Origin: Tubiluchus corallicola
Taxonomy: Eukaryota; Animalia; Priapulida
Reading direction: 5' to 3'
DNA: 64,000 bases
Assembly: GCA_030141605.1 (NCBI GenBank)
Contig: JAQGDQ010000389.1
Span: 81,592 to 145,591, forward strand
In this document: positions 2,770 to 61,733 of the stretch, one piece after another
Numbering within the stretch: position 1 is the first letter of the stretch
How the letters are laid out: each line of letters opens with the position of its first letter
The notes under the pieces: model-generated
Told to the model about the DNA's origin: nothing
Database searches by the model: none
Seen by the model: only the letters and a program-made list of their open reading frames with translations
Program-made: the position numbers and the translations under genes

Positions 2770-2849
2770 GGCAGCAGTCCTATTAACAAAATTATAACAG
2801 CCACAGATCAACGACAAAGTTTTAAGCAGGCGTCAGATCCAGAAGCAAG

Positions 2850-2898
2850 ATGTCAGTCACTGCAAAAGTAGCCATTCTACTGGTATTTGCTGTAAGCG
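2850..2898 (+). CDS. Ig-C1q (QREP-like) gene exon 1, signal peptide
   Basis: ATG 2850; MSVTAKVAILLVFAVS has a basic residue followed by a hydrophobic core; ends G|gtaagt (phase 1), in frame with exon 2. Confidence 0.8.
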
Positions 2899-3419
2899 GT
2901 AAGTGAATTTATTGTTATCTTTTTTGAAAAGCTACTTCTTAGTTTTTAATTAAGCTCTTTTAGGTAGTATAAACAAGTACTTTTGGTACTTTTAGATAAA
3001 AATATTGTGTGGAATAATAGTAATGTTTTTACTAACTCTGACGGTTTATTGTTTACTGCAACTGCTTATGGCTTAGAGGTTGTATGTAGTACTTCCTTTT
3101 GAAATCTATGTGCTAAAATGATGTACCTAATGCTTTGCAATTTTTTTACCTATAATAGTTTTTACAAAAAATATTCAGATCAGATATTTAATCAAATCCT
3201 GGTCTAAGTAAAACTTTACTTGGATATTCTGTGACCTCCTTTGTTGAAAATAATTACTTTTGTTTTTTCTATGTAAATATTTAGCAAGCTGTCATCACAG
3301 TACTGTTTTAGCCCATGTAGACTATTCTGTAAGCCTTCCTGAGAAGTAATTACACATTTGTAATTGCAAGTAATTGATATTTAATATGAACGAATTACAC
3401 TTATAATAAAAAATCGATG

Positions 3420-3670
3420 TGATTCTAATGTCTTTTGTAAACAAATTAAACAAAACTGGACATAATACGCATCCCTGTGTAACGCCGATATTTACTGGAA
3501 AAAAATCAGATAAATTATTGTTCAAGATTTTAAAATGCTCATTTATAGATGCGTACTTGCTTTTTATTATGTTGTGTGCCTAAATCATATTTTGGCAATT
3601 TTTAAAATAAAAAATGTCTGTAAAACATCAAATGCTTTTTAAGGTAAATAAAGCATGCATAATTATGTAA
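3420..3670 (-). mobile_element. Degenerate non-LTR retrotransposon RT fragment in intron 1
   Basis: Minus strand reads FPVNIGVTQGCVLCPVLFNLFTKDI (GVxQG..LSP.LFN motif), with a degraded ACF.DLKKAFD-like motif upstream near 3630-3660. Confidence 0.65.
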
Positions 3671-4643
3671 TTTGCCAACTACACTTTTCAAGGCACGTAT
3701 TTAATGTGACGCTTGTGACAATATCTTTAATCCAATTTGTTGTTTCTTAATTATTTTACGTTCGATTAGGTCATTTTCCAGACTTTCATGTATAATTTAA
3801 AAATAGCCAATTATCAAAAATTCACAAACGAATTATTATTGTTTTTGATAGTGTCTCTGACTTACGATTACAGCAAACTTGATCAGTTTCCTCTGCTTTT
3901 TGATGTTAGTTTCTTAAAGTCTATGCTAACGACTACATCTTATGTACAAAATTAGTTATAAACGGCAAAAATTGTAAAGACAAAAATTTGTTTGACTTCG
4001 ATTATTTTGTCTTATAACAAGCTGTATTTCCTTCAAATTTTTCAGTTTTTTTCAAAACGATTTTTGTAAAATATTTTTATTTCATAACTGCAGATCATCA
4101 TTAAATTCTCATCATCATAGTAGCATCATTATTGTCATAATCATCCAACAATATATCACCAACAAAAATGGTGTTAGAAACCTAGAGTGCACAGTAAATT
4201 GCAACCTCTTGTAAATACGTTTTTAATTTGGAGTCATGCTCCAAGTTTGACGTCATACTAAATTATTTAAGTGTTTTCGATTTCCAATAGTAGTGGATTA
4301 ACTCTTGTACATATAAGTAGGTTAGACTAGTGCATAGTGTAAATACAAAGCGATATTAGTAGTCCTATTATAAATGAAACTTGAAGAACGAATTAAACAC
4401 CTTGGTAGTTGCTATGACATGATTATGAATAGAGTAACATACTGAATAAAACAAGAAAATGACCATATTGAGCTATTTGCACATTCAATTAATATGATTC
4501 TATAAGACTAAGTGATTATAGTTAAACAACAATTAGACTTGTTACTGTTAATATGTAAATATGTTATTAAAAACTGTTAGATTCAGCCTATTATTAATTA
4601 CTCCTGTAATTTTTTCTGGTAATTTTTACTTGTTTTTCTTCAG

Positions 4644-4955
4644 CTGCAAGAAATGAACATCTCGACCAGCAGCCATCCAGATTACCACTTGTTCAAGGTT
4701 CAACAGCAGACCTTGAATGTCATGTTAACATCGAAGAAGTAACTGCCACTTATAAGGTGAAATGGTTCAAAAATGGAAATGGTCTAGAAATTGAAGGACG
4801 GATCTCTTACGTTGACAACAACCCAAAAGAGACAGGAATTTACAAAATTAGAATTGACGACATCAACATTTCAGAAGATGAGGGAACCTACGAGTGCCGA
4901 TATTTCAAAACTCCAGATGAAAAAGAATCAGATTCAGCAGTAATAACCATAATAG
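4644..4955 (+). CDS. Ig-C1q gene exon 2, Ig domain 1 (V/I-like)
   Basis: ttcttcag| ... |gtaag, phase 1-1, 312 nt; QGSTADLEC..VKWFKNG..EDEGTYEC gives the Ig Cys/Trp/DxGxYxC pattern. Confidence 0.92.
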
Positions 4956-5854
4956 GTAAGACACTACAATAAGCATAAATTCCAAAAATTGCTCTTTTTA
5001 TTAACAACTTTCCCTTTTCAGTAAAGACAGTCTTTTTTATTAATTAATATGCTTGTCTAAATTGCCCACTTTCAGTTATTTATATTACTTTGTAATTATA
5101 TAATTATCTCTTTATATCAGTTTTAATACAGCTTTGCGAAGCAATTGTAAAACAAAGATAATTAGAATCAAAATATAAGCTGATGTCAAAATAGATTTTA
5201 TCTGCCAATCAATAGAAATTAGTTTATAAATTACAGTGACAATCAATGAAAATGATACGTAGTCATGTAGCCAGTGATCTGTATTATTAACTATATTAGT
5301 TTAAAAGTACTTTATCTTGATTGATAAGTACAATTTATGCAAAAATAAATATAAAGAATAACAAAAAGATTCTGACATTGAAAATTTTTTCCCTAAATGC
5401 GGTAAAATACATTTGCGAGCATCTCAGAGAACGTGAACAGAATGAGATACTCAACTCAACTCAAACCAGATTTAAAGACACTTGATATAGGAATATTTAA
5501 AAATGGTTAAATGTGTTTATTAGATCTGGACACAGTGTCCCTGTCCCATAACTATCACTGACTAAGGAAACTATTGGATTGCCACAGTTCTTCCTAATTT
5601 TATAAAAGGCGTATCTACCACCAAGTTTTGACATTTTTATTGCTTAAACACCTTAATCAGATTTTCTTGATAACTGGGATACTCAAGTTTAGAACCCAAC
5701 ACTAGCTGTCATATCGTATCTCAATTTATGGAAGGTGTTTGATCTTCTAAGATAAAATTGCATTACTCAAAATTTTCAGTTTTGATGACAATAATTTGTT
5801 GACTATCGCTTTGAACACTGAATATTTGTATTATTGTTGGCTGTTCTAGCTAGT

Positions 5855-5965
5855 GTAGGAACACCTCAGGGATCAAGCTTTGGCCTTTGTTGTTTTTACT
5901 TAATATAAACAGTATGCTAGTTCACAAAAGTCGGTGAAAAACATGTGGTGATGACTCAACTTTTT
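5855..5965 (+). mobile_element. Degenerate L2/CR1-type RT fragment in intron 2
   Basis: VGTPQGSSFG/(frameshift)PLLFLLNIN followed by GDDST (YADD-like). Confidence 0.55.
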
Positions 5966-6086
5966 ATGACCCAAAAATGAGTTGATGTGCTGTACTGTAC
6001 TTATTTCATCCTGTGAGGGCAGATTTCTACTACCAGCAAAAAAAAGTCATTGAAAAGTCGTACATTGTTGTTATTTATATTTACAG

Positions 6087-6404
6087 ATGCCAGAAGCGAA
6101 TATTTTGACATGCAGCCATCCAGCCTGGGAGTTCCACAAGGCTCAATAGCAGAACTTGAATGTAGAATTAATATGTCACTTGTCTCTGTTATTAGCTATA
6201 ACGTGACATGGCTAAAAGACGGGAAAATTCTTAGTATCTCTCATCGAATATCTTATATGTATGAGAATCCAGTAATAAATGGCCTGCATAGTATTAAAAT
6301 TGTTGCTGTGGGAGTGCCAGAAGACGATGGAACCTACGTGTGTCGATTATTTAAATATCCTGACATTCTGGAAGATTCAGATGAAGCGAAATTGACTGTA
6401 ATAG
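6087..6404 (+). CDS. Ig-C1q gene exon 3, Ig domain 2 (paralog of exon 2)
   Basis: tttacag| ... |gtaagt, phase 1-1, 318 nt; QGSIAELEC..VTWLKDG..EDDGTYVC. Confidence 0.92.
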
Positions 6405-8009
6405 GTAAGTCATTAATACATATAAACATATTTTATGAAATGTATTCAATGATGTGGCTGTAACTTAATTGCACAGAAATATGGAACTGCTGTAATAAGT
6501 TTTTAATCTTCTTAATATGTAAAGCCTGGTAAAACTTTATGTTGCACAATGAACAAAAATTGGCAATTATTATTAAAACGTGACAGATTCCTGCAAAACA
6601 TTATAGCTAAGAGACTTGAAATTGGCAAGTTGTTACAAGTAAAAGTGAAAAATGTCAAAATTGACGCGAAACAAGTTGTAGAATAATATGATATCTGAAA
6701 TAAGTAAAAGACGTTTCAGATGAAATGTGAATTGGCAAAGTATCCCATATTCGTTGCAGTTTGTAGGATGATGCTGTTAATCAAATTTTGGTTGTGCATC
6801 TTGGCACTACATGTGAGTGGGTACCAAATCATCTGAGAGAACGAGTTAGCTTATACTCAGTAATCATATCTCGTTACATTTCATTTAGTGCCTAGAAAGT
6901 AAAAAGTAAAATATATTACTGAGTTATGAATTTCACTGGAAGCCAGGGTACATAAAACTTCAGCGTGAAAGTGACAGGCAGGGCAGCAGCATTCTATAAA
7001 GTTTAACAGTAATCTAAATTACTAGTAAGGACATGACCTAGTGTAGTATAGTTAGAATTTGCTTCAGTTTATACAACTGATAAAAGATATAAAAGTACTC
7101 TTAAACAAATAGATGTATTTAATGTAAAAGTGAGCACAGTAATAAATATATCTCTGCCTATTAACAACGAGAAATCAATGTAATAGTATGACAAAGAACT
7201 GCCTTTGTACAATTTCTGACCATTTTTCCTTGTGCAGCAACAAAATTTAAACTGTAATAAAAAGGAGGAATATAATTATGAGAAAAATCTGTTTGTTCAA
7301 ATGTTGCTGTACTTATAATAAAACCAGAAAAAGCACAAATGTATAAAGAAAGTATAAGCTAACCTTTTGCTGTAAAGAAAATACTTCTAACATTGTATAG
7401 AGCACTTTGACAGTATTAGGCAAATTTTTGACATTATAATGTGGGTATTTCAGTTTTCATAGAGCCCAATTATTTTTGCCTTTTCATGTGAAATTGACAT
7501 TAAATACGTGACAGAATGTGAACTACTAGGAATCAACAAGTTTGTCAGTTTCAATGCTAAAGTTTCAGTCAAAGTGTCAGTACGTTTATGACTCTAAAAA
7601 AACCAAGACACAAAAAAACCACTACAAGATCAAAAGAGCAAAAGCTAAGTTATTAGTATACAACTAGAAACACCTATGAGATAGAGTTTATAAAAAGTGA
7701 GTTTTATTCTCTTCTGCATTGGCAAATAAACATAACCACAGCAAGGAGCAAGCATTCTAGTGCAAGAAAAAATTCACATATTTTTTTCTCATTGTAAACG
7801 AATCAATCTCTGATGCGTTACTCAACTTGCAACTTGATTCTCGCTCTTTTGATTTTTACCATTGAAACTGGCAATTACTCAATCCCCCATTTGCACTCAT
7901 TATACTACAAACGGACCTTAGTATGCTTCTAACTAATTGACTTTGACTCACTATAATTTTCGTCCAATTGCTAAAAGGATGTCATCATTTTGTTTTTCTT
8001 ATTTAACAG

Positions 8010-8153
8010 TGGAACCACGGGAAGTAAAAATGTTGTTTAATGATGAAGAAATATTAACAAATCAGGTTACTGTCAGGGCCAACAATTCAGAGGAAACTTT
8101 CAAGTGTATCATTGTAGAGGCCTATCCAACTCCTGAAATTAAGTGGTACTTGG
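8010..8153 (+). CDS. Ig-C1q gene exon 4, N-terminal half of Ig domain 3 (C2-like)
   Basis: ttaacag| ... |gtaagt, phase 1-1; TFKCIIVEAYPTPEIKWYLG (C..A.P.P.I.W motif). Confidence 0.88.
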
Positions 8154-9154
8154 GTAAGTGAATTACGTTCAACATTTCTGTATTTGCTGTTATAGGCCCA
8201 GTATTATTACAAACTAGACAAACTAGAATCCTTTGTGCTTGCTTATAAAAGGCAAAAATTACTAAAACTCCCAGAAATATATCAGACATTCCCTTTAGGG
8301 AATGTTGTCAATATCTTTCATTAGCTCATGTAAGTAGCAGGTTTATACTGTACAGGATAACTTTATTACAGATTATTTGAAATGAGTTAATGGAATGGAA
8401 GTACCTTTTAGTATAAAAGTGATTTATTTTGAAAAATTGCTAAATTTTCTTTCACCGCTGGCCTTAGTAATAATTCTGAACTAATACAAATCTACATTAT
8501 AAATGAGGCAATGGTGGGGGAATACTTGTGTGAGAATTTTTTATTGAAATAGAGTTATTGAAAAAGATTTATGAGTGGGAAAGCAAGAAGGACTGAAACT
8601 TTACCCACATGTCACATGATGGTTGTAGTTATTATGCGTTGCTCTGGTACACTTAACCTTTGACCTACAGCAACTGCGTATGGAGTTGTCGTTCAATACA
8701 TAGTGAGACTGGCATTGTCTCATCAGTTAGTTAACAATTATCAATTCACATTCTTATTTGCAGAGATATTTTCTATTTAACCTTTAGCATGTTATTATAG
8801 TGCACACATAAGCATTGGCAGCTAATTACCGTGTTTCCATCGAAACCATCCTATTTTGCAGAAGTCTTAGTATTGATGCTTTCACGGGAATTCACGACCT
8901 TATAAGACTGTAGTATAAAGAACCACCAGTAGTAAGGGAGATTTCATAATGGTTGTCAAGAAAGAAACTCAATGCAGTCTGCCAAATGTGTGTGCATTTT
9001 TGTCATTTATGTCGTATGGGAGGCATAAGACGAGAGGCGCAATAAACGATGATATATGATGATACACGATGATATTACAAGTTGTCAATGTTTAATGGAA
9101 TTTTCTGTTAAACTTAAAACGTTTATCTAACTTTTTGAGGCCTGTTAGACTAAA

Positions 9155-9492
9155 AAATGTTTAGCTGAATTTCCCTAGCCCTGTCAGAGTTCAAACGTTT
9201 AGCTGAATTTCCCTAGCCCTGTCAGAGTTCAAACGTTTAGCTGAATTTCCCTAGCCCTGTCAGAGTTCAAACGTTTAGCTGAATTTCCCTAGCCCTGTCA
9301 GAGTTCAAACGTTTAGCTGAATTTTCTAGCCCTGTCAGAGTTCAAACGTTTAGCTGAATTTTCTAGCCCTATCAGACTTCAAACGTTTAGCTGAATTTTC
9401 TAGCCCTATCAGACTTCAAACGTTTAGCTGAATTTTCTAGCCCTGTCAGACTTCAAACGTTTAGCTGAATTTTTGAACCCTGTCAGAAGTCA
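9155..9492 (+). repeat. 37-38 bp minisatellite, about 9 copies
   Basis: Unit aaacgtttagctgaatttccctagccctgtcagagttc; ends about 60 bp before the exon 5 acceptor. Confidence 0.95.
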
Positions 9493-9554
9493 AATTGACT
9501 GATGATCCACTTCCAACATTAATGTTATCAGTCTGCCTATTTTGTGTCTTTTAG

Positions 9555-9749
9555 GTGAAGAAGACATAACTTCTTCTTCTGGACAAGACAATTGGACTAA
9601 TAGTACAACACAACTTGTGACTTCAACTAGCACCTTGAGACATGTATTTTCACGTGGCATGGAGGGTGATGATGGAAAGATCATCAGATGTTACATAACA
9701 GTACATACTCTGCATGTCTCTACTCCAAATATTTCTCTAAATGTTCTTT
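9555..9749 (+). CDS. Ig-C1q gene exon 5, C-terminal half of Ig domain 3
   Basis: tcttttag| ... |gtaagt, phase 1-1; VTSTSTLRHVFSR..DDGKIIRC..SLNVL completes the C2-like domain. Confidence 0.88.
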
Positions 9750-9904
9750 GTAAGTAGTCTGGAAACTTTTATAAAATGTTTTATATTTGATATGTACAAA
9801 TTTGGCCTTGTGAATGTTTGCTACTGGATGGGTGACGAAGCACCAGTGTTAGAAGCTAGCTGGTTTGAGTGGTTTCATTCGCCATGCTCATTTTAGCAGC
9901 TAAC

Positions 9905-9917
9905 ATTATTATTATTG

Positions 9918-10005
<88 letters not shown>
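9905..10005 (+). repeat. (TTA)n microsatellite
   Basis: About 30 TTA units, seen directly. Confidence 0.97.
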
Positions 10006-10007
<2 letters not shown>

Positions 10008-10893
10008 TGGGAGCTGCTTTTGTTACGTGAGTCAGTTAAAGGAAAATGTCAGAGAAACGGAAAGGTAATTGGCCATCTTGAGGTGAACCACAGCTGGTTG
10101 ATTGATGTTTTGCATTCTGTGTACTGACTGTAGCTATAAATGTATGTGGTGTACTAGTGCATTGTACTAGTGCCAGAATTTAATCTTCTAGTGTCGCATT
10201 TACTGTCTAGGGTTGTTGATGTTCAGAGATGCAGCTTGTCCTGCAAAACATAATCCTGCAGCTTACAAAAGATTTAGTGAGGCTTTGCTTATGATATGTG
10301 CATTAATTAGGAGTGCTGTAATTAAAGTTATCACCTTACAAAGTTTATAGGCTGACACTGCATTTACAAACATTTGCTAATGAGATGCGTATCAAGCTCT
10401 TTGGTTTGGTTGAGGTGAGTACTCTGAGAGTATTCCTCCCTGGCTTTTAAACATTTGGCATTGCATAACTAAATGTTTAGGTTTTGCACTTCAAGAGAGT
10501 AGAAGTACCTATCCTTTATATAAACTATACGTGTCTCTACGTAAAGCTCTGTGTTTAATACTCTGAGTAAAATTTTTTTATTTACTTTTGGTAGATAGAG
10601 CACAGGTGACAAGTGAATCTGTTAAGTGGTGCCTACTGTAATAATAAATATTCTGATAAATCATCCATTTTATCAAGTTAACATGTTACACGAATTTGGA
10701 AACACTAACTATACTTCTATATAAATGTGTCTGAGTTAAAGAAATCTAGTGGCCAAGGCTATTGCTATGTTATATTAATGTCTTGTGTAGAAATGTTGAT
10801 GGATCGGATACAAAGTAAACATTAAGCACCTTGATAGACATCGTATTCTCACTTAGATAATCTATGAGAATAATTTTGATTCTTTATTTGTAG

Positions 10894-11151
10894 ATGAAGC
10901 ACTCACAGTGAACTTAACTATCATTACTGGAAATTCACAGATTTTAATGGTCTCAACATTAGAGCTGAAATGTGAAGCTGATGCTAATCCTTCGCCAACT
11001 CTCACCTGGAAACTGGACGGCAATGTTTTACCTGACACAGGTGATGTCCTTAGAAGATCCGCTGTAGAGACTCAGGATGATGGAGACCAGTGTGAAGCAA
11101 AAAACACTGAAGGTTCAGTCACTTCAAACAGAATCGATGTTTCTGTGCTGT
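10894..11151 (+). CDS. Ig-C1q gene exon 6, Ig domain 4 (I-set; lacks the DxGxYxC tyrosine)
   Basis: tttgtag| ... |gtaagt, phase 1-1, 258 nt; LELKCEADANPSPTLTWKLDG..DDGDQC; 3 nt shorter than exons 7 and 8. Confidence 0.8.
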
Positions 11152-12099
11152 GTAAGTATCACATTTCTGTCTGTAGAATCTGATACTCTTAGCGTCACCA
11201 AATGTAGAATTTTTGTACATTTTCTTTCGATTGTAAACGAGGCAGGTGGCATTTCCCTTTCAGAAATCAGAACCTCTTAAATTAATCATGTTCACTGAGT
11301 CAGTGATTCTTTTTTCGCATCACTTTATTATTTATATGAATTTTCAGCGACACTAGCTTTGTTGCTTTGAAGGTACAGTGGTACTCTTCGATTCGATTAA
11401 TCAGTGGTACTTCTAAAAAGCATCCATTAAATGATAGAAATTTAAAAGTTTAGCTAAAATTCCTTCTGTTGCATTTCTTTTCTTGTTGACCATTGACTTT
11501 AAATTGTGTTATTTGGCTTGAGAGCTACCAAGATGAATCAAAGAGCCTAATTAGGAAATATGGACAATTACTTTTAGACGTTCATCAAAAACTGTCTTTT
11601 GTTTGTTGGTTTCATTCACTAACGGAATCTACTTTATTCTGTCCCGGCATTCAGATACTTAACAACAACAAAAACATAGAGGTAGGTAATGATAATAAAG
11701 GCTATTAGTACTTTCAATAAGACATTTGTATGTGCCCAAAGAGTCTGTTCTACTTATGTAATCTTTACTTGGCTTTTGTGCATTATAATATAGGTAGAAA
11801 CAATAATCATGAGTACCGTTTCGTTTGTAAGCTGGTACTTTTATCATGCGCTAATACGCTAACCTAGCAGTTTTGCTTTGAACCTGTTATTTGCTCATCC
11901 ATTGCAATTAACCTCGTTACCCAAAAAGTTTGGAACTGAACATTTAATAAGTTTCCTTTTGAAGCCCTCGTTTCAGGCTTTCACACTGAATCAGCTAACA
12001 GTCAAAGATGCATGTACAGTAGTTAGCCAGTTTTCCTTGTGACTTACAAGAGTAAGCATCATACAGCAAGCAAGAGCGAATAGTTAGGAACGTTGAAAA

Positions 12100-12258
12100 A
12101 TGAAGCATAACCGTAAAAATCTAACAGTTAAGGGGAAACTGAAAACTTTAGAGCAGTACAATAAACTTTCGAAGATGGGGCAGAGGTCTGCAGGAGCGCA
12201 GTTAAAAATTTCCCAAAGTACTCTCGGGAGAATATTGAAAAAAAACGGACTTGTGTGA
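12100..12258 (+). mobile_element. pogo/Tigger transposase N-terminal HTH relic in intron 6
   Basis: MKHNRKNLTVKGKLKTLEQYNKLSKMGQRSAGAQLKISQSTLGRILKK* resembles the CENP-B/Tigger N-terminal HTH; truncated by a stop. Confidence 0.6.
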
Positions 12259-12688
12259 TTTAGAAAAGTATACTTTTTAATTTATTAGTAATTCACTAAT
12301 ATTTTTTTACATTTTAACTACACAAGGGAAGTTAGGCATTAATTCGTTTCAAAAATTCATTAAAAACCTTTGCAGTGCATAATGACTCATACTTCTGTAT
12401 CAGTAATATTATACCTATCCATTAATAGGGTCGGTTAATTGGGTCAAAACACTGATTAATCATCCATTTTAGCAATTTAACATACTAATTTGGAAACACT
12501 AACTGTACTTCTATATAAATGTGTCTGAGTTAAAGAAATCTAGTGGTCAAGGCTATTGCTATGTTATATTAACGTCTTGTGTAGAAATGTTGATGGATCG
12601 GATGCCAACGTGAACATTAAGCACCTAGGTAGACACCGTATTCTCACTTAGATAATCTGTGAGAATAATTTTGATTCTTTATTCGTAG

Positions 12689-12949
12689 ATAAAGCTCTCA
12701 CAGTGAACTTAACTATCATTGCTGGAAGTTCAGAGATTTTAGAGGGTTCAACATTAGAGCTGAAATGTGACGCTGATGCTAATCCTTCGCCAACTCTCAC
12801 CTGGAAACTGGACGGCAATGTTTTACCTGACACAGGTGATGTCCTTAGAAGATCTGCTGTAAAACCTGAGGATGATGGAGAATACGAATGTGTAGCAACA
12901 AACACTGAAGGTTCAGTCACGTCTAACAGCATAGATGTTTCTGTGCAAT
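12689..12949 (+). CDS. Ig-C1q gene exon 7, Ig domain 5 (I-set)
   Basis: ttcgtag| ... |gtaagt, phase 1-1, 261 nt; EGSTLELKCDADANPSPTLTW..EDDGEYECVATNTEG. Confidence 0.92.
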
Positions 12950-15608
12950 GTAAGTATCACATTTCTGTCTGTAGAATCTGATACTCTTAGCGTTACCAAA
13001 TGTAGAATTTTTGAACAGCATTTTCTTTTCATTCAAAATGAGTCTGGTGTATTTACCTTTGATAAATCATAACCTCTTAAATTAATAATGTTCATTGAGT
13101 TATTGATTCTTCTTATCACAATCATATTTATTATTTACGTGAATTTTCAGTGAAACTAGCTTTATTGTTTCAAAGATGGAGTGGGGCGCCTCGATTTCTG
13201 AATGGTACTTGTAAAAAACATCTAATGAATGATAGCAGCTCAAAAGTTTAACTGTTCCTTCTGCTGCATTCCTTTTCTTGGGTTGCAGTCTGATTATTTT
13301 AATTCATAATTTCAGTTTGGAGAGCCTGTCTTCATTCCTTCTAGAGCTGAAATATTTTTTCTACTACAATATTAACATAGCATTCAAGTCACATAATGCA
13401 CACCACAGAAGAGCTCTCAAGATGCCTAAGGCTGACTAATGTCTTTTTTTGGATTTTTGCGTTCCGCATGTTACAGACAAAATCATTAACAATATCAAGA
13501 GCTGCAATAAGAATACAAGTGACACATCAAAGAAAAAACTAGCTTTATGTATGCTGTTCAGTATTTGTGGTTGTCAGTTACTTAGTCTTCAGCCGTTTTT
13601 TATCAGGCTTTATTGTTTTTAAATGACCATGAAGTTTTTATTACATTTTTAATCGTTCGCATTATATTCTACATGTGATGACGAGATATTTCCCTTGGGT
13701 TGTAATGAAACCTGTGTGCCTTGAATGCATCATGTTTTATTACTATAATTATTAATAAAAAATGAATATTAAAATTTGTTTACTTCTGATTTTAATGCAA
13801 TAGAAATTTAAAGCAAATAAACACATTTTACTAAGTGTGCCATTTCTTCCTATTTTTCTGTTTGCGTCTTTCTCCCATGCCATTGCTTCCTGTTTCTTGT
13901 TTACGGTGCTTTAATACTTGTGCCATTTTTATCTATATTTAAAAATTTGGCAAACTGCTAACTTAAAATAAATGCTTGATACAAGAATGCAAGATCTATA
14001 CTTGTTGAATCTGGTGATATGGTTCCAGTTTTAGAACCAATTTCTTTACGTGCTGAATTAGATTAAGAACTGACAGCAGCTTGTTAACATATAAAGATTT
14101 GCAAACAACCATTAACATAGAGAAGTTTTTATTTATTTGTTGTATTTAATTGGTCCTAACTCAGCAGAACTAATCTGTATTAAATAAACGTAACAGATAG
14201 CGAGTCTAAACCCAGGTTAACTGAGCAATTCGGCTGACTTAAACAACTAGGCAGGAGAGATATGTATAAGCCCAGATCTAAGTTTGGGTTTACGATAATA
14301 GAAAGTACTGCAGAGATACGTCGATAGTGTTATTTACACTCGCATGCGCAGACACTGTTTCTTTTGACACTTTTTGCAAGGAAAAGACACTGAAAGATAC
14401 TTTTGTTATACCGTATGTAAATAATTGTTATTATGCTAATTACACAGTCATTACTTCTAAACGTGAAAACAGCTTAAATATTGATCAAAATCTGGCTTCT
14501 GTCAATGCAATTGATTTATTAATACACAGGTCACAAGCAGCATTTAGCCAAGCCAAACTTGATGAGTAACGAACATTCTCACAAACACCCCCGCTGCAAG
14601 TGCATGCAACTGCAAAAAAACTGAAAAACATGGAAAAATTTGGCAGTACAGTAAGCTTGGTACCAGGAAATTTTGGTACCGGGAAAAGTTACTTCTAGAA
14701 ACTTTTAGCAGTGCGAAAATCTAGCACTGGGAAAATTCAGTACAAAGCAATATGGTTGTCACGAACCTTTAAATTGACAGAGTGGCTCTTAAAATGTGGG
14801 AGGCTTTCAAGTTATCAGACTAAAGTTCACGAAAAGCATATTATTAGTACCTTGTTAATCTTCACTGCAGATTCTAGCTAGAGATGAATAAAAGAAAGAA
14901 AGAAGAAAGAGCAACGAGGATTGTGGTGCAATTACTTATTTACAATAATTGTTCTTTGTTAGACGTCATATTGAATTACAGTCATAAATGTTAGAACTAA
15001 TTTCTCTATTTATCACTGCACAGTTTTATACTATAAAAGTACTTTCTAAATCGCCTATACATTAGCTACAAATTAAACATAAAACGTTTGAATTTGCTGT
15101 GACTCTGGGAAAACCTGTTTCAACCATTTCACTCGCCTGGTTATACTAGCCTGGGTTGTTGACTTTTAAAGATATAATCCCTCAGCAAACAAGAAATTTA
15201 ATTACTTAATTCCTGGCTAAGCTTATGATATGGGTGGTTAAAATAATAATTTGTTGAGCACTTGGATAAATTAAGTTAGCAAAGACTGTAGACTTAACTG
15301 AATAAATCTACTGATGTAGCTGACTTTACTCTACTGATATAAGCATTAGTTAATGAAACGGGTTTTTAGGTTGACATTAGGTGAGTATTCTGAAATGGGT
15401 ATTTATGTATGCATGGTTTTTTAATATATGGTATCGCGTAATAAAATGTATTGGTTTTGCACTTCAAACGCAGTAGAGTTTTAATGTGCAGTTAAAAAAC
15501 GTTTTGAGTAGAAGTACCTGTTTTTCATATCAGCCTCTATATACGTGTTTTTATAAAAAGCTCCGTGTTTAATATCCTGAGTAAAATTTTATGGTTTATT
15601 TTTGATAG

Positions 15609-15869
15609 ACAAACCACGCACTGCAGATTTGAGTATTATTACTGGAAGTTCAGAGATTGTAATGTTATCAACATTGGAGCTCAAATGTGAAGCTGATGCT
15701 AATCCATCACCAACCTTCACCTGGAAACTGGATCGCAATATTTTACCTGACACAGGCGATGTTCTTACAAGACATGACGTGAGGAGCCGAGATACAGGAA
15801 AATACGAGTGTGTAGCAGCAAACGCTCTTGGTTCGGTCACGTCAAACATAATAGACATTTCTGTGAATA
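15609..15869 (+). CDS. Ig-C1q gene exon 8, Ig domain 6 (I-set)
   Basis: tttgatag| ... |gtaagt, phase 1-1, 261 nt; LELKCEADANPSPTFTW..DTGKYECVAANALG. Confidence 0.92.
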
Positions 15870-16956
15870 GTAAGTTTTACGTTTCTCTATATAGAATCTG
15901 ATACTTTTAGCATCACTGAATATGTAGAATTTTTTAGTATTTACCTGTGATTTTAAATGAAGCCAGTTCACTGATCTTTCACAAATCATCAATATCCAAA
16001 TGAGTAATTCTTCCTTGAGATAATTTTTATTATTCTTATTTTCACATCACTTTGTTATCTATAAGAGTTTTAGTGTCACTAGCCTTGTTGTTTTGAAGGT
16101 CTCGTGGGGGTACCACAATTACACAGTAATGCTTCCAGAAAGTATCCACTAAAAAACCACAACTCAAATGTTTGTGTTCACCCCTTTTCTTAGCTTACAA
16201 TCTCATTACTTTAATTTATATTTTCATTTTCGCAATTCATTTTTAATTCTCTCTAGTGCAACAAGCTTTTGTTGTCTTACTTCCTTATCCTGCAAAGGGT
16301 CGCTAAGCCTCTGACTTGGGTTGGCTAGTGTATTTTACTTTCCCCTTTGTGCTTCACTTTTAATGCATGTTTTGAACAAATCTAGCAATATCCGGAATTG
16401 CTGGCTTGAGTCGCTGAGGGTTGATGTGAGCAACTCGACAGAGCAAAACTGTTCATAGAACAACAGAGGACTTTATTAGCCCATTTGCTCATCCTGATCC
16501 TGTAAATACAAACAAATACAGCAAGACGTAGCGGAATAGCATTAATGCAAACATGTCACCTGTAAATTAAAAAAAACATTTCAATATCCACAATAATTCA
16601 CTGATCTTGTTTCTCATTGGCCAATTTCATGTAGTCTCAATTCTTTCTTACTTGTTGTTTTTTTATGCCTCCTCCCATTCCTGTCCTATTTTTAGGGCAA
16701 ACCATCCTGGGTGACAAAGTTCAGCCCTTCATGTTGAGTCGCCATTGATGGCACAATGATGTTTAAGAACGTATTGATATGAGTTCACAATGATTGATGC
16801 ACTGAATAGATTGTGGCTAATCCATGTTGTTGGTACCAAATTACGCTGGATAATGGAAAGGATGGTGATAATTGCGGAAACATCTTTGACTGTGATGACA
16901 TAATAATATTGACCAGCTCGTGATGATAATGATGATAAGTAACATTTTCATTTCAG

Positions 16957-17067
16957 CATTTGCTTTCTCTGTTCATACGCCAGAAAGCAGCTCTGGAAGC
17001 TGGATAAATATTATGAAATTTACAAAGATCCGAGTAAATTATGGAAACGTTTATTCATCGTCCACGG
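16957..17067 (+). CDS. Ig-C1q gene exon 9, globular C1q domain part 1
   Basis: catttcag| ... |gtatgt, phase 1-1; FAFSVH..MKFTKIRVNYGNVYSSSTG matches the gC1q AFS..F..V..N.G..Y...TG pattern. Confidence 0.87.
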
Positions 17068-17499
17068 GTATGTGATTTGCTATAAGTTAACAATGCTTCC
17101 CAACAAGAAAATAATATAATATTTGCTTCTATCATCATAACATCTAAACATTGTTGAAATTTTCTGGCTGACATTTCATTCCACACAACATTAGCGTCCT
17201 AGCAGGATTTATTGGAAAATCCCACAGGAAAAACCCACCTCACATTCCTTGCTATAATTGTGTAGAATTCTCATAATCTGTTGTATTGATTATCATTACT
17301 CCCCATTTTCAGTCTTAAAAAAGGTTTAATTGAAAAGTAACAAAGTTACAAGGAAACCGCGTCTCAGATGTGGGGGACATTGATCCTCCCTAGAACATTG
17401 TTACTTTCATATAATTGCAAAATAACGTTATACTTAATGAAAGCAGACAGAATACAAAACAACTACTTGTATTTTCGGCATGATAAGATTTCTCTAGCA

Positions 17500-18060
17500 T
17501 TTTTATTATTTTTATTATCGTCCTAGACGTGTTTCAGCCTACTAAGAGCTTCATCAGGGTTTTGATTTGAGAACGCTGTAAATTAACAGAACATACGTGC
17601 TTGCATGTGTATATGTGAGGGTGTGTGTATGTGTATGTGTGTGTTTGATGCGTGCGTGCATGTGGAGCCCTAACTGTAAATCATGGCACCCCATTCCATT
17701 GACTTACTATGTTTCAAATATAGACAGCATGATTGATCTTAGATCAACATATTTGAATCTTAGGATTTTTATAAAACAACGATTTTAAATTTCCAAATGT
17801 TAAAGCTTTCAAATTGTTTCATGAACTGAAATGATATCAATATGACAAGCTTATTTATTTTTAATGTTTTATTGTCATAATGCTGGTTATAAAAATATGC
17901 TTTTTCACCATGGTTGTGTTTAGATAGGCCTTCGCGTTAATTTGATATGCAAAATATTTAGAAGTTATTTATCCTAAGTGCTCCAAAGGGACATAATCCA
18001 TCCTTAGCTAAGCCCTATATTAGCATACCAGGAACTTTTTTGGAAGACAACCCTTCAGTT
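17500..18060 (-). mobile_element. Possible Penelope-like element relic with a minimal hammerhead-like motif
   Basis: Minus strand: degraded PG(ILY)GLAK..DG..PF near 17985-18035, then CTGATGA-agctcttagtaggct-GAAA-cac-GTC at 17557-17526 followed by AATAAA. Confidence 0.4.
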
Positions 18061-19827
18061 TACAATCAGAGAACTGCTTGAATTCATATAATTATTTACG
18101 GGAGATAATCGTAATCCCTGTATATCAGCGTATGAAAACGATTTGTTATCAGATTCATGTTATTTGTTTTGCTTAATTTGCTTTCTTTCATGGTCCTATT
18201 TTTAGCTTAGCAACAAGGTTTTGTTAACCTTGTGAACTGGAGTGACTTTGACCACTGACCAGCATTAAGTTCAGCCAAGCACAGCAATGTGTTAAAATTA
18301 TTTTTTTCAAGTTAATGTTGTTACTGATCATGGGGTGCTAAGTGACATTTGCATTTGAACTTTACAAACGAAATTATGAAAGATGCTGATTTTTATCAAT
18401 GATGCAGATTAGTCTTGCAAAAATTTTTGTTCTCGGTACAAATTAAGATGGCCTTACAAATACAATACTTACTACTTTTTCCATCTGTTGCACCGTTTTG
18501 CATCACAGAAGCTAATACTTATGTTGAATGAATTTTATGCTGGATTTGTTAGGAAAAATCGTGAAATTCCCTGTGCGTTTGACAAGAACACTAGCGTTCG
18601 TATTTTACAGAGAAACTACCTAACCGTACGGCGTTATAACCGTAGCATTAAAACTGCATTGACTGGCTAAAGGCTAGTTCACACTTTACCATTGCAGTTG
18701 ATGTCACAGTTGCCTGTCTATTGATGATTCATACTGATAAACCATTACGAAATGCAGATCGTGTGAATTGCTTAACAGATAATGGATGATCTAATTACAT
18801 TTATTTTTACATACTCTACAGAAAAAGCTGAAACATACTTTGTAGGTAGTTTTCTAAGTCGATTCGCTGTTATAAAAAACACTGTTGTTACGTGAAATAC
18901 GACGATTGACTTTAACTTAGTTAAACAAGAAAATGAGATTATTTTCAACTTTTAATTTCGAATTCCGTAATCGTTTCACAGGTAATTGTTTTTCTCTAAG
19001 ACTTAGTTTTTTGGTCTGTTTTGCATTTTAGTCTCTGCGGGTGATTCTTACTTCCTCCAAATCAAAGAGGAAACTTCTGTGTCAGGATTGAGGGGGCATG
19101 TACGATCATTGATCTTAGTGCTGGAGTAGGCTAATGAAAAAATTAAAAAATGAATTTAAAAAAATGAAATTAAATATGGTTAAGCGTAAATGCTGACAAG
19201 GGAATGCAGTAAACCTCTCAGGTGTGCATGTGAATGTGCCTTTAACTAGAACAAATTGAAATTCTGACTGTCTAGTAGTAAAAACAACTAATCACGTGCA
19301 CAAAGGGAGCTTCTGAAAAGGGAAGGTGTACTGTAGATCCTTGTCAGTGGTCAGTGGCGTTCTCTTATCCAGCTCTGTTTACACTCACAGGCTTTGCAAC
19401 AAACGAGCCACCTGTGTCATTTTTTCCATTGTTGTTATTTCGGTAAGCTGTGTATGCAATGTGCTTAATAATAAATCGATAATTCAATTTAATTCAATTA
19501 TATGAATCAATAATTTTGTTTCAGCTTAAACATTTGTTAGCTTAAGCATAAACCTGCAACGCAACTCTGTTAGGGCTGCAGTATCATCCTCCTTGCTTCT
19601 GTTGTAAATAGACAGCAGTTCAGTATTTTGATTTTTAAATGCATTTTTTCTTCAGCACTAAGATTTTATGTACTATAGTACATAGTATGAATAAATTTTA
19701 CATTACGTTACACAACAAAAGATCAAAGATCACATATGTGCACCTTTGGGTTAACTTTTGGATACTTTTTATTAAATTTATGCATTAGATAAAGACATAA
19801 ACGTTAATTTGGTTTTTTACTTTACAG

Positions 19828-19956
19828 GAAAATTCAAGGCGCCTATATCAGGCACTTACTCATTTGAACTGAATTTACGGGTGAAGAGAAGCTCAGCAAA
19901 TGTTGTGGCCGTTCTTAAACATAATGGAAATGATGTTGCACGTCTCTGGCATCCAG
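19828..19956 (+). CDS. Ig-C1q gene exon 10, globular C1q domain part 2
   Basis: tttacag| ... |gtaagc, phase 1-1; GKFKAPISGTYSFELNL..VAVLKHNG (gC1q GxFxAPxxGxYxF motif). Confidence 0.92.
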
Positions 19957-22900
19957 GTAAGCTTGTTTAGTAAACTATTTGCAATGAGGCATCGTGTCTA
20001 CACCCATACTAACAAGTTCATTACTCAAGAGTTTTAACTAAACAATTTTTTACATAAACTAATTTTCTATAATAATGTCATATTCATTAAATTTCATTCG
20101 TTCATTTGTTCATTCATTCACAAGTTGGTGACTGTCCATCCCCTTTGTCAATTACTTATTGATTGTTTAAAGCTCACTCACCTTATTTGCAATTCTAGTT
20201 TAATTATTCATTAACATAATTATGTTTCCTTCATTTTAATTCGTTTGGTAATAATAATTTGTAAAATAAGTATTGTTATACTTAAACAAAAATGCATAAG
20301 TGAAACACATAAAATAGATATAAATACTGTTCTGTTGTCGATACTAGCCACCAGGGTAGTTTTAATAGCTCCTGGATGGTTTGAACCAGAGCTATTGGTG
20401 GGCGAGACGCCATGGTTTGAGTACCTCATCCTGAAACGAGATTAGTGAACCAAATGCCTGGGAGTCATTAATTAGCATTGATTAAGTGGCATAAGCCCCG
20501 CCCATAATCTTGACTAATTTAGTGATTTTTTAAAATGAAAATGTTAATGTAAGAAAAAACTTTTGTAATCGAAATGAACAAGCTGGCTAAACACAAAACA
20601 TAAAAAAGGAATCTACCCTTGATTGGTTACCTCACATTGGCGCCCAAATAGTGAGGAGACATAATAATGAAGGGATCAGGCTTGTCCTGTTTGGCGCACA
20701 AACTAATACCAGTAATCACTGAACTCAAGGAATAAGAATGCGGCACTTGTTTTTATAGATTTTGCACAGGTGAAATAGGTTAGTATTTAAATTTCAGTCA
20801 ATCGGAAAGTAGGATTCGTGAATTTCGTTCAGGTAAGATGATTGAATTTCGATTTATAGATGTTTTTATTTTGAAGAGCCTTTAAAATAACATACACGTA
20901 ACATGTTCTGTGTCCTTTAATGAACGAAAGTTTAAACACGTAACAGGGCAAAAGCTCCGCCCCCCTCCCTTTGAAATCAAAGCCTTCCCCCTTTGAATGG
21001 AGTTAACATAATAAAGCAAAGCTGAATAATGCCTTCCACAACGTGACCCCAAGAGTTTCAAATGAAACACAAAAGGAAGATAACAGTTTTTGTTGCATAA
21101 TTTCAAATATCATTAGTCTGTGCTCGAGGCTACAAAATTATTCAGTAGAGTTAATGATTTTCTTTTAGTCGGTTGACTTTAGATGAAATATTGATTCGTT
21201 TAAATTTTACTTTATTGGCAGGTTTTATTGGTGCACCCTTAATTACGATTTTGCAAACCTAAAAAATTGTAAAAAGAGATTTATGTATTTATTTATGGAA
21301 CAAGAGCATTTTAAGTTAATACAGAAAAATACTGGCTGCAACCAGTCCCATCTCTTGGTTGGTGGTTAACCTCAGGCTTAATTGTTCAGCATTGTACAAC
21401 TAAATGGCAAGACTTCAGTGGAATGTTTGCAAGCATGCAAGTTTCAATTTCCAACTGTGTAAGACTATCGTTCAGTAGAGGATAAAATGTCTGCCACAAG
21501 CCAGGTTGCCAAAAGCAGGTTTCTTCACTGAAACTTCTCGTTATCTTTCTGCAAAATTTTATACTCAGAATTTCTAATGCAATAAAATAGCAGGTACATT
21601 TTACAGGTGTAAGCTAAAGTACAAGTAAAAAGCGTACTGAAATAAGAAGCCAAGCCCTAAATTTACATTTGAAAAGTGGGCAGAGGTCAGTAAGTTAGGC
21701 TTGTATTTAAACACTTGACATTGAAAGAATGAACTATTACAGGCAAACTGTTCAAGTTATTCATTCCACACAGTATTGATATTAAATTTTTACCAACTAC
21801 AAGGAAAAGAAATAAAGGAAGAGATTGTTAGGTTACAGCCACAGAATAATTAAGAAAAATCAATTAATCGATAAAATAACCATACAGACTAAAGAAGAAC
21901 AAGGGAGTGAGCAGAGCACGGCACCTGTACAATAAACATCATCATCATTCTGTGTTTATCATTATTTCAAGGATTAAATGCAAATTACTTCATTTGTCAA
22001 AACTTAAAAAAAGATAATTAGCAATACAGGAATGCGTTGCACCACTGAGCTAATGCTCAATGCTGTGATGAAATGCTGGCATGTACACATTATAAATTTA
22101 CCAATTAACAATTATTAAGAAAGTGAGATTATGCAAAAAAACAAACAAGAAATCATTTTAGTGCAAAAACCGACCTGTAGGAAAAAATGAAGTTTTCGCG
22201 AATTTTGCTCTTCGCTGGAGATCTGCAAATTGAAGCATGTCTGGAAAATCAAGCTTGTGAGCATCATCATGAAAATTTACAAATATTTACAACTTAGAGC
22301 TACGAAGAAGTATCACTGAAGTCATTCGTGCTACTAGGTAATGACTCTTGCTCGTTAGAACAGACAAAGCCATGGTAAATTAATGTTCTTTAAATGATAT
22401 TACACAGCTGAAGTAATTTCACTGAGTAAAAACTGCTGCCAACAGGAATCGAAGGAGGAATGCCGTTTAAGGTGGTAAGTACGTTTTTCAGTTTCGCAAG
22501 GAGATGACAGGCAAAATGATTCATTGGGGTTGTCATTGGTTGAAATATCAGGTAGGTCAATGCAGGTAAAACTGATTGCTCAGATAACATTGTCTGCTGA
22601 TTTCTCTCAAATTTGTCACCCCAGACAGGAGATGGGAGAGACTTTTGCAAATTTGTAATAGGCTCCATCATCTTCAAGTTAACTCTTGCAGGGCCAATTT
22701 ATTTTAGCCATTTTTGGGCAAGAGGAGAACTTTGGGCTACCTGGCAGCCTACCTACCAATCAAATATCATTTGCGTGGTTTATTTCCTGGAATCCAGGCG
22801 AAAATTGAAGTACAGTGCTGCTGTTAGATATTCAGTGTGTTGTACTAAAACTAGGCAAGTTATAAGATAAAATTCGAAATTTAAATTTACCGCTGTGCTC

Positions 22901-23319
22901 ACGCATGAGCTGTCGAATGTGTAAAGTTCGTCACAAACTAACATATCTAGCATATAACAAAATACCTGTGTGGTAATAATTCTTTCACGTAAGTCATTTT
23001 TGGAAAAAATAGTAAGCCTTCTTTCAATATTTTAAAAAGCAAATTATTTTGACCTACAGTTTAAGATTTAGTTCGGTTTTGCTTTTAGTGTCGATGGTCG
23101 TAGGAAGTCACATCATTTAGGAATGGACATCTTAGGTTGCAGTACAAGCAGTGTAAGGACAGGAGGTGAAGACTATGTGGAATTTTCAGATTCGGAATTA
23201 GAATTGATCAAATTAAACAAAAAATAATCAAATTACTTAAAATCAGTCTGCCTAGGTTGAGTGCTTTAACTTTAGAAGTGCTAGTTCAGTTAGTCAGCTA
23301 TACTAGATAACCATGATCA

Positions 23320-23430
23320 CCAGGGAATGTGGTGCTGAGCTTTTGCCTTGCAAGCAAAAGGGTGCTAGTTCAAATCCATGCTGCATATAACTTTTTTGTA
23401 TTTCCTATTTTTCAAGTTTGGTATCTAAAT
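23320..23430 (+). mobile_element. Degenerate tRNA-like (SINE-head-like) repeat, related to 35043-35160
   Basis: ttgcaag..ggtgctagttcaaatcc, followed by taactttttt..tatttttcaagtttgg, shared with the 35043 copy. Confidence 0.45.
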
Positions 23431-23556
23431 TTTATAAATTTTGGGTTTGCAAAGTAAAGAATAATCCTAACATTAAGATTAACTGGTGTATTCCTGTGAA
23501 TATTATTCACTCTCTGTACAACAGTTGTGCTTAAAAATAATATTATTTCATTGCAG

Positions 23557-23699
23557 GTGGTGGTAACTGGCAAACGACATCAAGTTCTGTCATTCTTCGT
23601 CTAGAAATGGGTGACGAAGTCTATGTCACATATCATTATACCAACACCGCCATTGACACATCTGATTTCAGCATTTTCAATGGTTATCTGATTGGCTAG
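23557..23699 (+). CDS. Ig-C1q gene exon 11, globular C1q domain part 3 and stop
   Basis: cattgcag|; TSSSVILRLEMGDEVYV..FSIFNGYLIG* (L.L..GD.V and F.GYL motifs); TAG at 23697-23699. The spliced CDS totals 2181 nt (726 aa). Confidence 0.93.
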
Positions 23700-23759: not shown

Positions 23760-25088
23760 TGTGATGGTTCGGGTCAGAAGGGCCACAGGTACCCGAATAC
23801 CACCTTTTGACGTAGCGTGTGCCGAAAATTCTATGCTAATTATTTATACGGCGCTACGTCGAAAGGTGGTCTTCGGGTACCTCTGGCCTTTCCAACCCGA
23901 ACCATCACAGGTGGTGGCAGCGGTGGGATAATTGATTAAAGGTTATTTGATTGATTGTTTTATTTGAGTTTAGTTGGCTGGAATTATTGATTTAGCCACG
24001 AATGTTGAATAGTGCATTAGCAAATTTAATTCCAGTTTAAATATAAGTTTCCAAATGTTTGTTTATTGCCGTTTTAATAACTGACAAACATCTGACCTTG
24101 AATGTGCGATTTGTGGTCATTACTATGAAATGTACGAGTGGTTGATTGCATGAACGATACTGTGGTTTAAAGAATTTTTGATACGGACATCAATTATTGT
24201 GTGTTTGTGCACCTGTCTAGGTGGTATAAATACGTGTGATTGTTGTAACAGTGAAGTAAAGGTAACCAAGAAACAGGTTCGGTCTTTTCTTGGATTAATT
24301 GGCTTCTACCGGCGGTTCATTGAAAATTTCAGCAATATTGTGGCACCACCTTTCGTGCTCACTGAAAACAATGCACGCTTGACCGTTGAATGGAATGATG
24401 CCTGCGAGCAAAGTTTTATTCAATTGCGCAGTTGCCTAAGTTCCAACTCAGTGCTGCATTCGCCTGACTTTTCACTACCTTTTATTCTAACCACTGATGC
24501 CAGCTTTATGGGTATAGGGGCTGTCCTGTCACAAGTACAAGGTAAACTGGGAGAAGTCCCGATCACGTGGGTATAGGGGCTGTCCTGTCACAAGTACAAG
24601 GTGAACTGGGAGAAGTCCCGATCACATGGGTATAGGGGCTGTCCTGTCACAAGTACAAGGTGAACTGGGAGAAGTCGTGATCACGGGGGCATAGGAGCTG
24701 TCCTGTCACAAGTACACGGTGAACTGGGAGAAGTCCCGATCACGTGGGTATTGGGGCTGTCCTGTCACAAGTACAAGGTGAACTGGGAGAAGTCCCGATC
24801 ACGTATGTGAGTAGGAAACTGACGGCATGTGAGCAGAATTATTCGGTTGTGGATATTGAATGTTTATCGATTGTGAATGCTGTTGAGAAACTGAGATATT
24901 TCCTTGAAGGTAGACGATTTACGATAAAGACTGACCAACGTGGACTCCTTGCCCTACCGCGAATTAAGAAAAAAAATTGTCGCCTGTGCAGGTGGACTTT
25001 GATTTTGTCAGAATTTAGTTATACCATAGAAGACATTTGTGGCAATGAAAATACCGTAGCTGACGCCTTGTCAAGATTAGATGTCTAG
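23760..25088 (+). mobile_element. Internally deleted Ty3/Gypsy (Gmr1-like) LTR retrotransposon: putative 150-bp LTR, PBS and RT-connection/RNase H fragment
   Basis: TG..CA unit 23760-23909; PBS TGGTGGCAGCGGTGGGAT at 23912-23929; pol fragment KKQVRSFLGLIGFYRRFI..TDAS..GIGAVLSQ..SRKL..ECL..TD..ADALSR that stops at 25088, just after RNase H. Confidence 0.85.
24509..24804 (+). repeat. 59-bp tandem repeat, 5 copies, inside the RNase H coding sequence
   Basis: ggtatagggg-like starts at 24511, 24570, 24629, 24688 and 24747. Confidence 0.95.
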
Positions 25089-61701: not shown

Positions 61702-61733
61702 CTGGACAAACAAAAGCAAATTATTTCTAGATA

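What the first reader, a model, noticed from the sequence alone, without database searches (positions are those of the whole stretch)
2850..23699. Secreted six-Ig plus globular C1q protein (QREP/VIgL-like candidate immune receptor) with no stalk
Seen: 11 exons splice in frame to 726 aa (signal peptide, 2 V/I-like Ig, 1 split C2-like Ig, 3 I-set Ig, gC1q). The last Ig joins gC1q directly (..DISVN-T-FAFS..) with no Gly-X-Y collagen, coiled coil or TM segment. The three C1q exons are missing from the ORF track. Established: gC1q domains trimerise and act in pattern recognition; Ig+lectin fusions (FREP, CREP, GREP, and Ig+C1q QREP) are described mainly from gastropods, usually with fewer Ig domains. 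Inference: a soluble multivalent recognition molecule (18 Ig domains per trimer), possibly an independently assembled, undescribed family.
Basis: partly seen in the sequence, partly recalled or inferred. Interest (0 to 1): 0.82.

Follow-up and report, generated by a model that had tools for sequence, protein, structure and literature searches.

The report
Six-Ig arm on C1q head
An invertebrate gene, likely from a priapulid worm, has eleven intact exons predicted to splice into one secreted protein that joins six antibody-type (Ig) domains directly to a C1q recognition head; this layout is known from snails, so it is likely an independent re-invention that would act as a soluble immune bridging molecule.

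Summary
Eleven exons with GT-AG, phase-1 introns give a 726-aa open frame: signal-like start, six Ig domains and a complete gC1q domain, with no linker, collagen or membrane segment. No hidden exon or convincing second promoter exon was found between Ig6 and C1q. No RNA run was available, so the splice is untested.

Corrections: the three distal-to-proximal Ig4-6 copies are recent exon duplicates that likely serve as the stalk; Ig4 has lost its core tyrosine; Ig1-2 fit I-set better than V-set.

Ig+C1q proteins are known as QREPs, reported only from gastropods, with one or several Ig domains (PMC10672478). My searches found no protein with both domains and no relative above about 45% identity, but they reached no QREP sequence either. 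Earlier scan notes call this genome a probable priapulid (15 of 33 notes; not tested here). If so, this is a QREP-like layout outside molluscs, probably assembled separately by exon shuffling. The scan had not noted this layout elsewhere.

Best guess: secreted trimeric opsonin or adaptor (about 0.5). Verdict: new variant of a known kind.

The parts
2724..2735 (+). kB-like palindrome (NF-kB/Rel site candidate) just upstream of the TATA box
   Evidence: P of at least one match in 312 nt is 0.015-0.031 under a Markov background, three patterns chosen after seeing the site; suggestive only
2763..2770 (+). TATA box candidate, 87 nt before the ATG
   Evidence: the only TATAAAA[AG] match in 1-2900
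2850..2898 (+). Exon 1: start codon and likely signal peptide (16 codons + 1 nt)
   Evidence: hydropathy 1.68, consensus donor; no predictor run
4644..4955 (+). Exon 2: Ig1, I-set/V-like, Cys spacing 59
   Evidence: I-set E 2.6e-9; titin I-set domains best
6087..6404 (+). Exon 3: Ig2, old duplicate of Ig1 (48% identity)
   Evidence: pN<pS, Fisher p 2e-4
8010..8153 (+). Exon 4: first half of Ig3 (CD80-like C2-set)
   Evidence: C2-set_2 E 8.2e-5, model 2-36
9555..9749 (+). Exon 5: second half of Ig3
   Evidence: C2-set_2 E 0.039, model 50-88
10413..10603 (+). Remnant of an exon-8-type upstream flank, acceptor and first few exon bases: trace of a lost or recombined stalk-exon copy
   Evidence: 73-76% identity to 15379-15617, E 1e-19 and 2e-10
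10894..11151 (+). Exon 6: Ig4, recent duplicate of exon 7, one codon short, core tyrosine lost
   Evidence: 81% aa and 90% nt identity to exon 7
12689..12949 (+). Exon 7: Ig5, short Ig_2/Ig_3/I-type, Cys spacing 41
   Evidence: Ig_2 E 2.6e-15
15609..15869 (+). Exon 8: Ig6, 69% aa identity to Ig5
   Evidence: pN<pS vs exon 7, p 8e-4
16957..17067 (+). Exon 9: first third of gC1q
   Evidence: model 1-36 (E 0.11)
19828..19956 (+). Exon 10: middle third of gC1q
   Evidence: model 38-74 (E 0.008)
23557..23699 (+). Exon 11 coding part: last third of gC1q and TAG
   Evidence: E 1.3e-6; one search matches C1q, adiponectin, cerebellin-1, C1QL structures
23935..23940 (+). ATTAAA, candidate polyadenylation signal 236 nt after the stop

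Best explanation
The window holds eleven in-frame exons for six Ig domains and a complete C1q head, which likely form one secreted protein that is predicted to trimerise through the head and would act as a soluble immune bridge, the head likely binding microbial or damaged surfaces and the Ig tips likely binding host cells. Shown: exon set, open frame, domain content, no linker, duplication history of Ig4-6. Inferred: splicing across 15869-16957; secretion; trimer (from solved gC1q structures) of about 235 kDa with three glycosylated Ig arms in place of a collagen stalk; origin by joining phase-1 Ig exons from a cell-adhesion-type gene to a secreted C1q gene; arm length that changes by exon duplication and could change by exon skipping. 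Which end binds the microbe is a guess.
For: All 10 introns GT-AG and phase 1, 726 aa without stop. Full C1q domain, no gaps at splice points. No candidate internal or membrane exon in intron 8 at the thresholds used. Purifying selection between Ig1/Ig2, Ig5/Ig6 and Ig4/Ig6 (p 2e-4, 8e-4, 2e-3). All 128 of 128 skip combinations of exons 2-8 stay in frame. Head is basic (pI 9.3), arms acidic (pI 4.3-4.8); 9 of 9 N-glycan sequons lie in the arms. TATA box with a kB-like site just upstream. Literature: solved C1q domains all form trimers; soluble invertebrate C1qDC proteins act mainly as agglutinins and opsonins (PMC10672478); snail QREPs are up-regulated on trematode infection (PMC8878817; PMC13619432). 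Low identity to everything found (C1q 24-34%; Ig at most about 45%) and internal exon turnover fit a fast-evolving recognition gene.
Against: No transcript or protein evidence. The same review says small secreted C1q proteins probably work as monomers, and lists non-immune roles (cerebellins, adiponectin, leech nerve repair, hymenopteran venom proteins). Best matches of the Ig parts are neural and adhesion proteins (nephrin-like for Ig1-3; Dscam, contactin, L1 for Ig5). No paralogue in the window, so no sign of the expansion typical of immune repertoires. Exon 6 vs 7 shows no significant purifying selection (p 0.15; about 9 non-synonymous to 3 synonymous changes on the exon 6 branch and 10 to 2 on exon 7, by a rough codon count) and Ig4 has lost a core residue. 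The kB-like motif was picked after the fact and lies at the end of an 81-nt segment duplicated at 1619-1699.
Confidence: 0.5

Rival explanations
1. One secreted Ig6-C1q protein, but a non-immune bridge: a cerebellin/C1QL-like synaptic or cell-matrix adaptor whose C1q head binds a receptor on one cell and whose Ig arms bind adhesion molecules on another.
For: Ig1-3 best match nephrin-like proteins among the 136 fetched (E about 1e-9 in that small set); Ig5 best matches Dscam, contactin, neurofascin, Robo in the PDB; the C1q exon matches cerebellin-1 and C1QL1-3 among others. Cerebellins are secreted adapters (PMC10672478); a nemertean C1q gene is expressed in brain and nerve cords (PMC9835746).
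Against: These matches are generic (25-45% identity) and multi-Ig proteins rank high by domain number. No conserved orthologue with this layout was found, and the exon array is turning over, which is unusual for wiring genes (inference).
Confidence: 0.22
2. The Ig exons and the C1q exons are mostly not joined: the locus makes an Ig-only secreted form ending in intron 8, and a C1q-only form from its own short first exon or from exon 1 spliced straight to exon 9.
For: Read-through of the exon 8 donor adds 10 residues and a stop, and an ATTAAA lies at 16566. Two ATG-started mini-exons with weak donors exist in intron 8 (16665-16710, 16790-16832). Exon 1 joined to exon 9 is in frame.
Against: Exon 8 has a full consensus donor, intron 8 is the shortest intron (1087 nt), both mini-exons have donor scores of 4 against 6-7 for all real donors, and exon 9 starts exactly at C1q model position 1 in the matching phase. 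The same read-through tail follows exons 6 and 7 as part of the duplicated unit.
Confidence: 0.12
3. A young exon-shuffling product that is already decaying and has little or no function.
For: Ig4 lost a core tyrosine; exons 6 and 7 are less alike (90.3%) than their upstream flanks (93.6%); a broken extra exon copy lies at 10413-10603.
Against: All 20 splice sites and 2181 coding nt are intact; older duplicates show purifying selection; the one exon 8 difference displayed for run X1 is synonymous (496 difference rows were not shown).
Confidence: 0.08
4. A true gastropod-type QREP with an unusually long Ig array, homologous to the snail family (the host is a gastropod, or the fusion is old).
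For: Same order of domains; caenogastropod QREPs may carry several Ig domains (PMC10672478).
Against: 15 of 33 earlier notes on this genome mention priapulids (unchecked AI notes). No gastropod Ig+C1q protein surfaced. Gastropod VIgL Ig domains are described as hard to detect automatically (PMC9334734; said of FREP/CREP), whereas these pass Pfam cut-offs.
Confidence: 0.08

Closest known systems
QREPs (C1q-related proteins), a VIgL subfamily of Heterobranchia and Caenogastropoda (PMC10672478, PMC8878817, PMC6835236, PMC13619432; primary paper not held, not read)
   Same: N-terminal Ig domain(s) and C-terminal gC1q; no collagen
   Different: Six Ig domains of three types, all found by Pfam; host probably not a gastropod (untested); no local gene expansion seen; homology untested because no QREP sequence was reached
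FREP, CREP, GREP, HREP (gastropod VIgLs; PMC9334734, PMC8878817)
   Same: Secreted Ig + recognition domain design
   Different: Different C-terminal domain; one or two divergent Ig domains
VCBPs of amphioxus (PMC13428168)
   Same: Ig-like domains joined to a microbe-facing binding module
   Different: Chitin-binding module instead of gC1q; population polymorphism not testable here
Secreted globular-head C1q proteins and bivalve sSUEL/C1q fusions (PMC10672478, PMC6835236)
   Same: Signal peptide + gC1q; a second binding domain added in front in one lineage
   Different: No Ig arm
Cerebellins and C1QL proteins (PDB 5kca, 4qqp and others)
   Same: Secreted gC1q adaptors with an N-terminal part that can bind a second partner
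   Different: No Ig domains; only short-stretch similarity was tested

Membership tests
C1q-domain-containing protein | Complete C-terminal gC1q domain | tested here: met
C1q-domain-containing protein | Trimer of gC1q domains | not testable with these tools
   The domain is split over three exons; the fold tools take only unspliced stretches
QREP | One or several N-terminal Ig domains before gC1q | tested here: met
   (on the predicted splice)
QREP | Ig and C1q on one transcript | not testable with these tools
   No RNA holder listed; intron 8 scan supports it indirectly
QREP | Secreted (signal peptide, no membrane segment) | tested here: inconclusive
   Hydropathy pattern fits; no predictor available
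QREP | Host in Heterobranchia or Caenogastropoda | not tested
QREP | Common descent with gastropod QREP Ig and C1q domains | tested here: inconclusive
   No QREP among hits; no tree could be built
VIgL | Sequence diversification (gene expansion, polymorphism or somatic change) | tested here: inconclusive
   No paralogue in 64 kb; no genome; internal exon duplication present
VIgL | Carbohydrate binding by the C-terminal domain | not testable with these tools
   Needs an assay
C1q / C1q-like (collagen type) | Gly-X-Y collagen stalk | tested here: not met

The most novel reading that the evidence does not exclude
A priapulid (ecdysozoan) worm independently built a QREP-like soluble immune receptor by exon shuffling, using a tandem Ig array as a length-adjustable stalk in place of collagen or coiled coil: the first Ig+C1q recognition molecule outside gastropods, with arm length tuned by exon duplication and skipping.
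Probability: 0.4. Interest if true: 0.65.

Novelty: new variant of a known kind. Interest (0 to 1): 0.47.

Why it matters
Ig + C1q fusions are stated to occur only in two gastropod groups. A separate origin in an ecdysozoan would show that joining Ig arms to a recognition head is a repeated solution in invertebrate immunity, next to FREPs and VCBPs. It would also give a concrete, testable molecule in a phylum whose immunity is barely studied, and a natural trimeric Ig scaffold without collagen. It would not be a new kind of system.

Tried and rejected
No genome held, so no paralogue count. No RNA holder listed. Run X1 covers introns and exons alike in 30 of 30 bins of 10500-19050, so it is DNA and says nothing on splicing; X2 laid one contig on a repeat. 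Only 10500-19050 was laid; exons 1-5, 10 and 11 were not. Four X1 joints from 12453 back to 10610-10618 first looked like further cassette copies (my notebook says so), but they border a high-depth repeat and are inconclusive; contig depth is no copy number. Protein searches: exon 3 against longer proteins, 0 of 115 candidates; exon 11 against 1.84 billion representatives, 11 hits, 3 with C1q, none with an animal Ig domain; C1q alignment A1, whose exon rows were misaligned, 4 of 2209 candidates, none with Ig; Ig alignment A2, 159 hits of 7984 scored, 120 listed, 0 of 120 with C1q by Pfam column or by my profile. These tools warn that blanks are weak evidence, and none returned a known QREP, so sensitivity to this layout is unproven. 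Metagenome contigs: 4 loci of 302 stretches, generic Ig matches, no convincing C1q (one E 0.75 stretch). ESM Atlas: generic Ig clusters for exon 2, a C1q cluster at 0.89 for exon 11, no Ig+C1q cluster among the rows shown. Single-sequence fold of Ig1 failed (pLDDT 46) and was not used. Hidden membrane exons: four candidates in introns 5 and 7, two being an (ATT)n microsatellite, none in introns 8-10. Earlier findings: nothing near, nothing by sequence or words for this layout. No complex prediction and no tree were run.

Full report
Observation. Eleven exons between 2850 and 23699 have GT-AG introns, all 10 of 10 in phase 1, and give 2181 nt, 726 aa and a single terminal stop. Pfam, run on 10 of the 11 exons one by one, finds Ig domains in exons 2, 3, 6, 7 and 8, the two halves of a CD80-like C2 domain in exons 4 and 5, and three consecutive thirds of the C1q model in exons 9-11. 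The spliced C-terminal part covers positions 2-129 of a 132-position profile from 11 natural C1q domains (76 bits) with no gap at the splice points, and is 24-34% identical to them. Exon 11 alone matches C1q, adiponectin, cerebellin-1 and C1QL structures. This order and phase agreement is far beyond chance.

No stalk in the usual sense. There is no collagen run, no membrane segment, and only 20 residues between the last Ig cysteine and the first C1q strand, about as many as between two Ig domains. A scan of all introns for hidden phase-1 exons found none in introns 8-10. The signal peptide rests on hydropathy only.

One gene or two. No RNA run holds this stretch, and the one holder is DNA, so the junction 15869-16957 is untested. 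Indirect evidence favours one gene: a full consensus donor after exon 8, the shortest intron of the gene (1087 nt), exon 9 starting at C1q model position 1 in the right phase, and only two weak ATG mini-exons in the intron (donor score 4 against 6-7 for real donors). One TATA box sits 87 nt before the ATG and an ATTAAA 236 nt after the stop. An ATTAAA at 16566 leaves room for a shorter Ig-only form. I put a joined transcript at about 0.88.

History of the Ig arm. Ig1 and Ig2 are old duplicates (48% identity). Ig4-6 are younger: 81% between Ig4 and Ig5, 66-69% to Ig6, with flanking intron DNA copied along (86% over 843 nt). A broken trace of another copy lies at 10413-10603. Older pairs show purifying selection (Fisher p 2e-4, 8e-4, 2e-3), but the youngest pair does not (p 0.15), and Ig4 has lost one codon and the tyrosine before its second cysteine. 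All internal exons are symmetric, so 128 of 128 skip combinations of exons 2-8 stay in frame. The simplest reading is that Ig4-6 form a spacer that grows and shrinks by unequal crossing-over, and that the fusion arose by shuffling phase-1 exons between a cell-adhesion-type Ig gene and a secreted C1q gene. Ig1-2 score better as I-set than V-set, so 'variable-type' should not be assumed.

Relatives. No search returned a protein with both Ig and C1q: 0 of 115 candidates scored for exon 3, 3 C1q proteins among 11 hits for exon 11, 4 hits for a poorly aligned C1q profile, and 0 of 120 listed Ig hits of 159 carried C1q. Best Ig identities were about 45% or less, to nephrin-like, L1, Dscam, CD22 and hemicentin-like proteins. 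These searches also failed to reach the known snail QREPs, so they do not prove absence. Within the window there is no second Ig or C1q gene (1470 frame pieces; 3 C1q and 7 Ig hits, all in this gene, plus one at E 0.98). No genome was held. The downstream neighbour is a TMEM214 gene on the other strand.

Host. I did not establish it. Fifteen of 33 earlier notes on this genome mention priapulids, several calling it a probable priapulid. These are unchecked AI notes and serve as a lead only; the novelty claim depends on them.

How it likely works. Shown: the parts above. Established from literature: solved gC1q domains form trimers, and soluble invertebrate C1q-domain proteins act mainly as agglutinins and opsonins, with non-immune exceptions (PMC10672478). 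Inferred: a secreted trimer of about 235 kDa (3 x 78.4) with a basic head (pI 9.3) and three acidic, glycosylated arms (pI 4.3-4.8; 9 of 9 sequons in the arms), roughly 25 nm long at about 4 nm per Ig domain (recalled figure). The head would bind anionic microbial or damaged surfaces, and the Ig1-2 tips would bind blood cells or each other. Phagocytic amoebocytes are reported in Priapulida (PMC7930007). A kB-like palindrome just upstream of the TATA box fits immune induction, but P is only 0.015-0.031 with patterns chosen afterwards. I give this 0.5. A cerebellin-like neural or matrix adaptor gets 0.22, mostly separate Ig and C1q products 0.12, a decaying gene 0.08, a true gastropod-type QREP 0.08.

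Comparison with what is known. It is built like a QREP. The review PMC10672478 says QREPs occur only in Heterobranchia (one Ig) and Caenogastropoda (one or several Ig, expanded). PMC8878817 says one or two Ig and up-regulation on trematode infection; PMC6835236 says two. Architecture is met; host range, common descent, diversification and sugar binding are untested or inconclusive, so I do not file it as a QREP. Ten literature searches showed no Ig+C1q protein outside gastropods and no priapulid C1q study; most subscription papers, including the primary QREP paper, are not in the library, and their supplements could list longer or non-gastropod forms.

What I saw of each paper. PMC10672478: passages and section 4 part 1 of 2. 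Passages only: PMC8878817, PMC9334734, PMC6835236, PMC9835746, PMC13619432, PMC11312191, PMC13428168, PMC7930007. No supplements were opened. The kB and TATA consensus patterns and the term tyrosine corner are recalled.

Verdict. A real, intact gene model with a known domain pairing in an unusual form and probably an unexpected animal group: new variant of a known kind, interest 0.47.

Noticed in passing
window 33292-61720, minus strand: Exon pieces of a TMEM214 gene (PF10151 model 160-207 at 61502-61720, 292-346 at 46801-47022, 520-592 at 33292-33600), tail to tail with the Ig-C1q gene; useful as taxon and synteny marker. A possible later exon near 31530-31681 had no Pfam hit.
   Followed up: partly
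window 24154-25085: Fragments of an LTR-retrotransposon RT/RNase H region just after the gene, interrupted by five copies of a 59-bp tandem repeat at 24509-24804.
   Followed up: no
window 17214-17223, minus strand: The only exact match in the window to the 10-base kB consensus lies in intron 9.
   Followed up: no
window 23760-23909: A 150-nt imperfect inverted repeat in the predicted 3' untranslated region, probably a small transposon.
   Followed up: no
window 43874-46264 and 52512-57041: Long minisatellites (36-bp x 66, 46-bp x 99) inside TMEM214 introns; the first gives two spurious frames of about 450 codons.
   Followed up: no
window 11644-12501: High-depth repeat in run X1 between the duplicated exons 6 and 7; it may have helped the unequal crossing-over.
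   Followed up: no
window 9159-9487 and 9905-10005: A 37-bp tandem repeat and an (ATT)n microsatellite flank exon 5.
   Followed up: no
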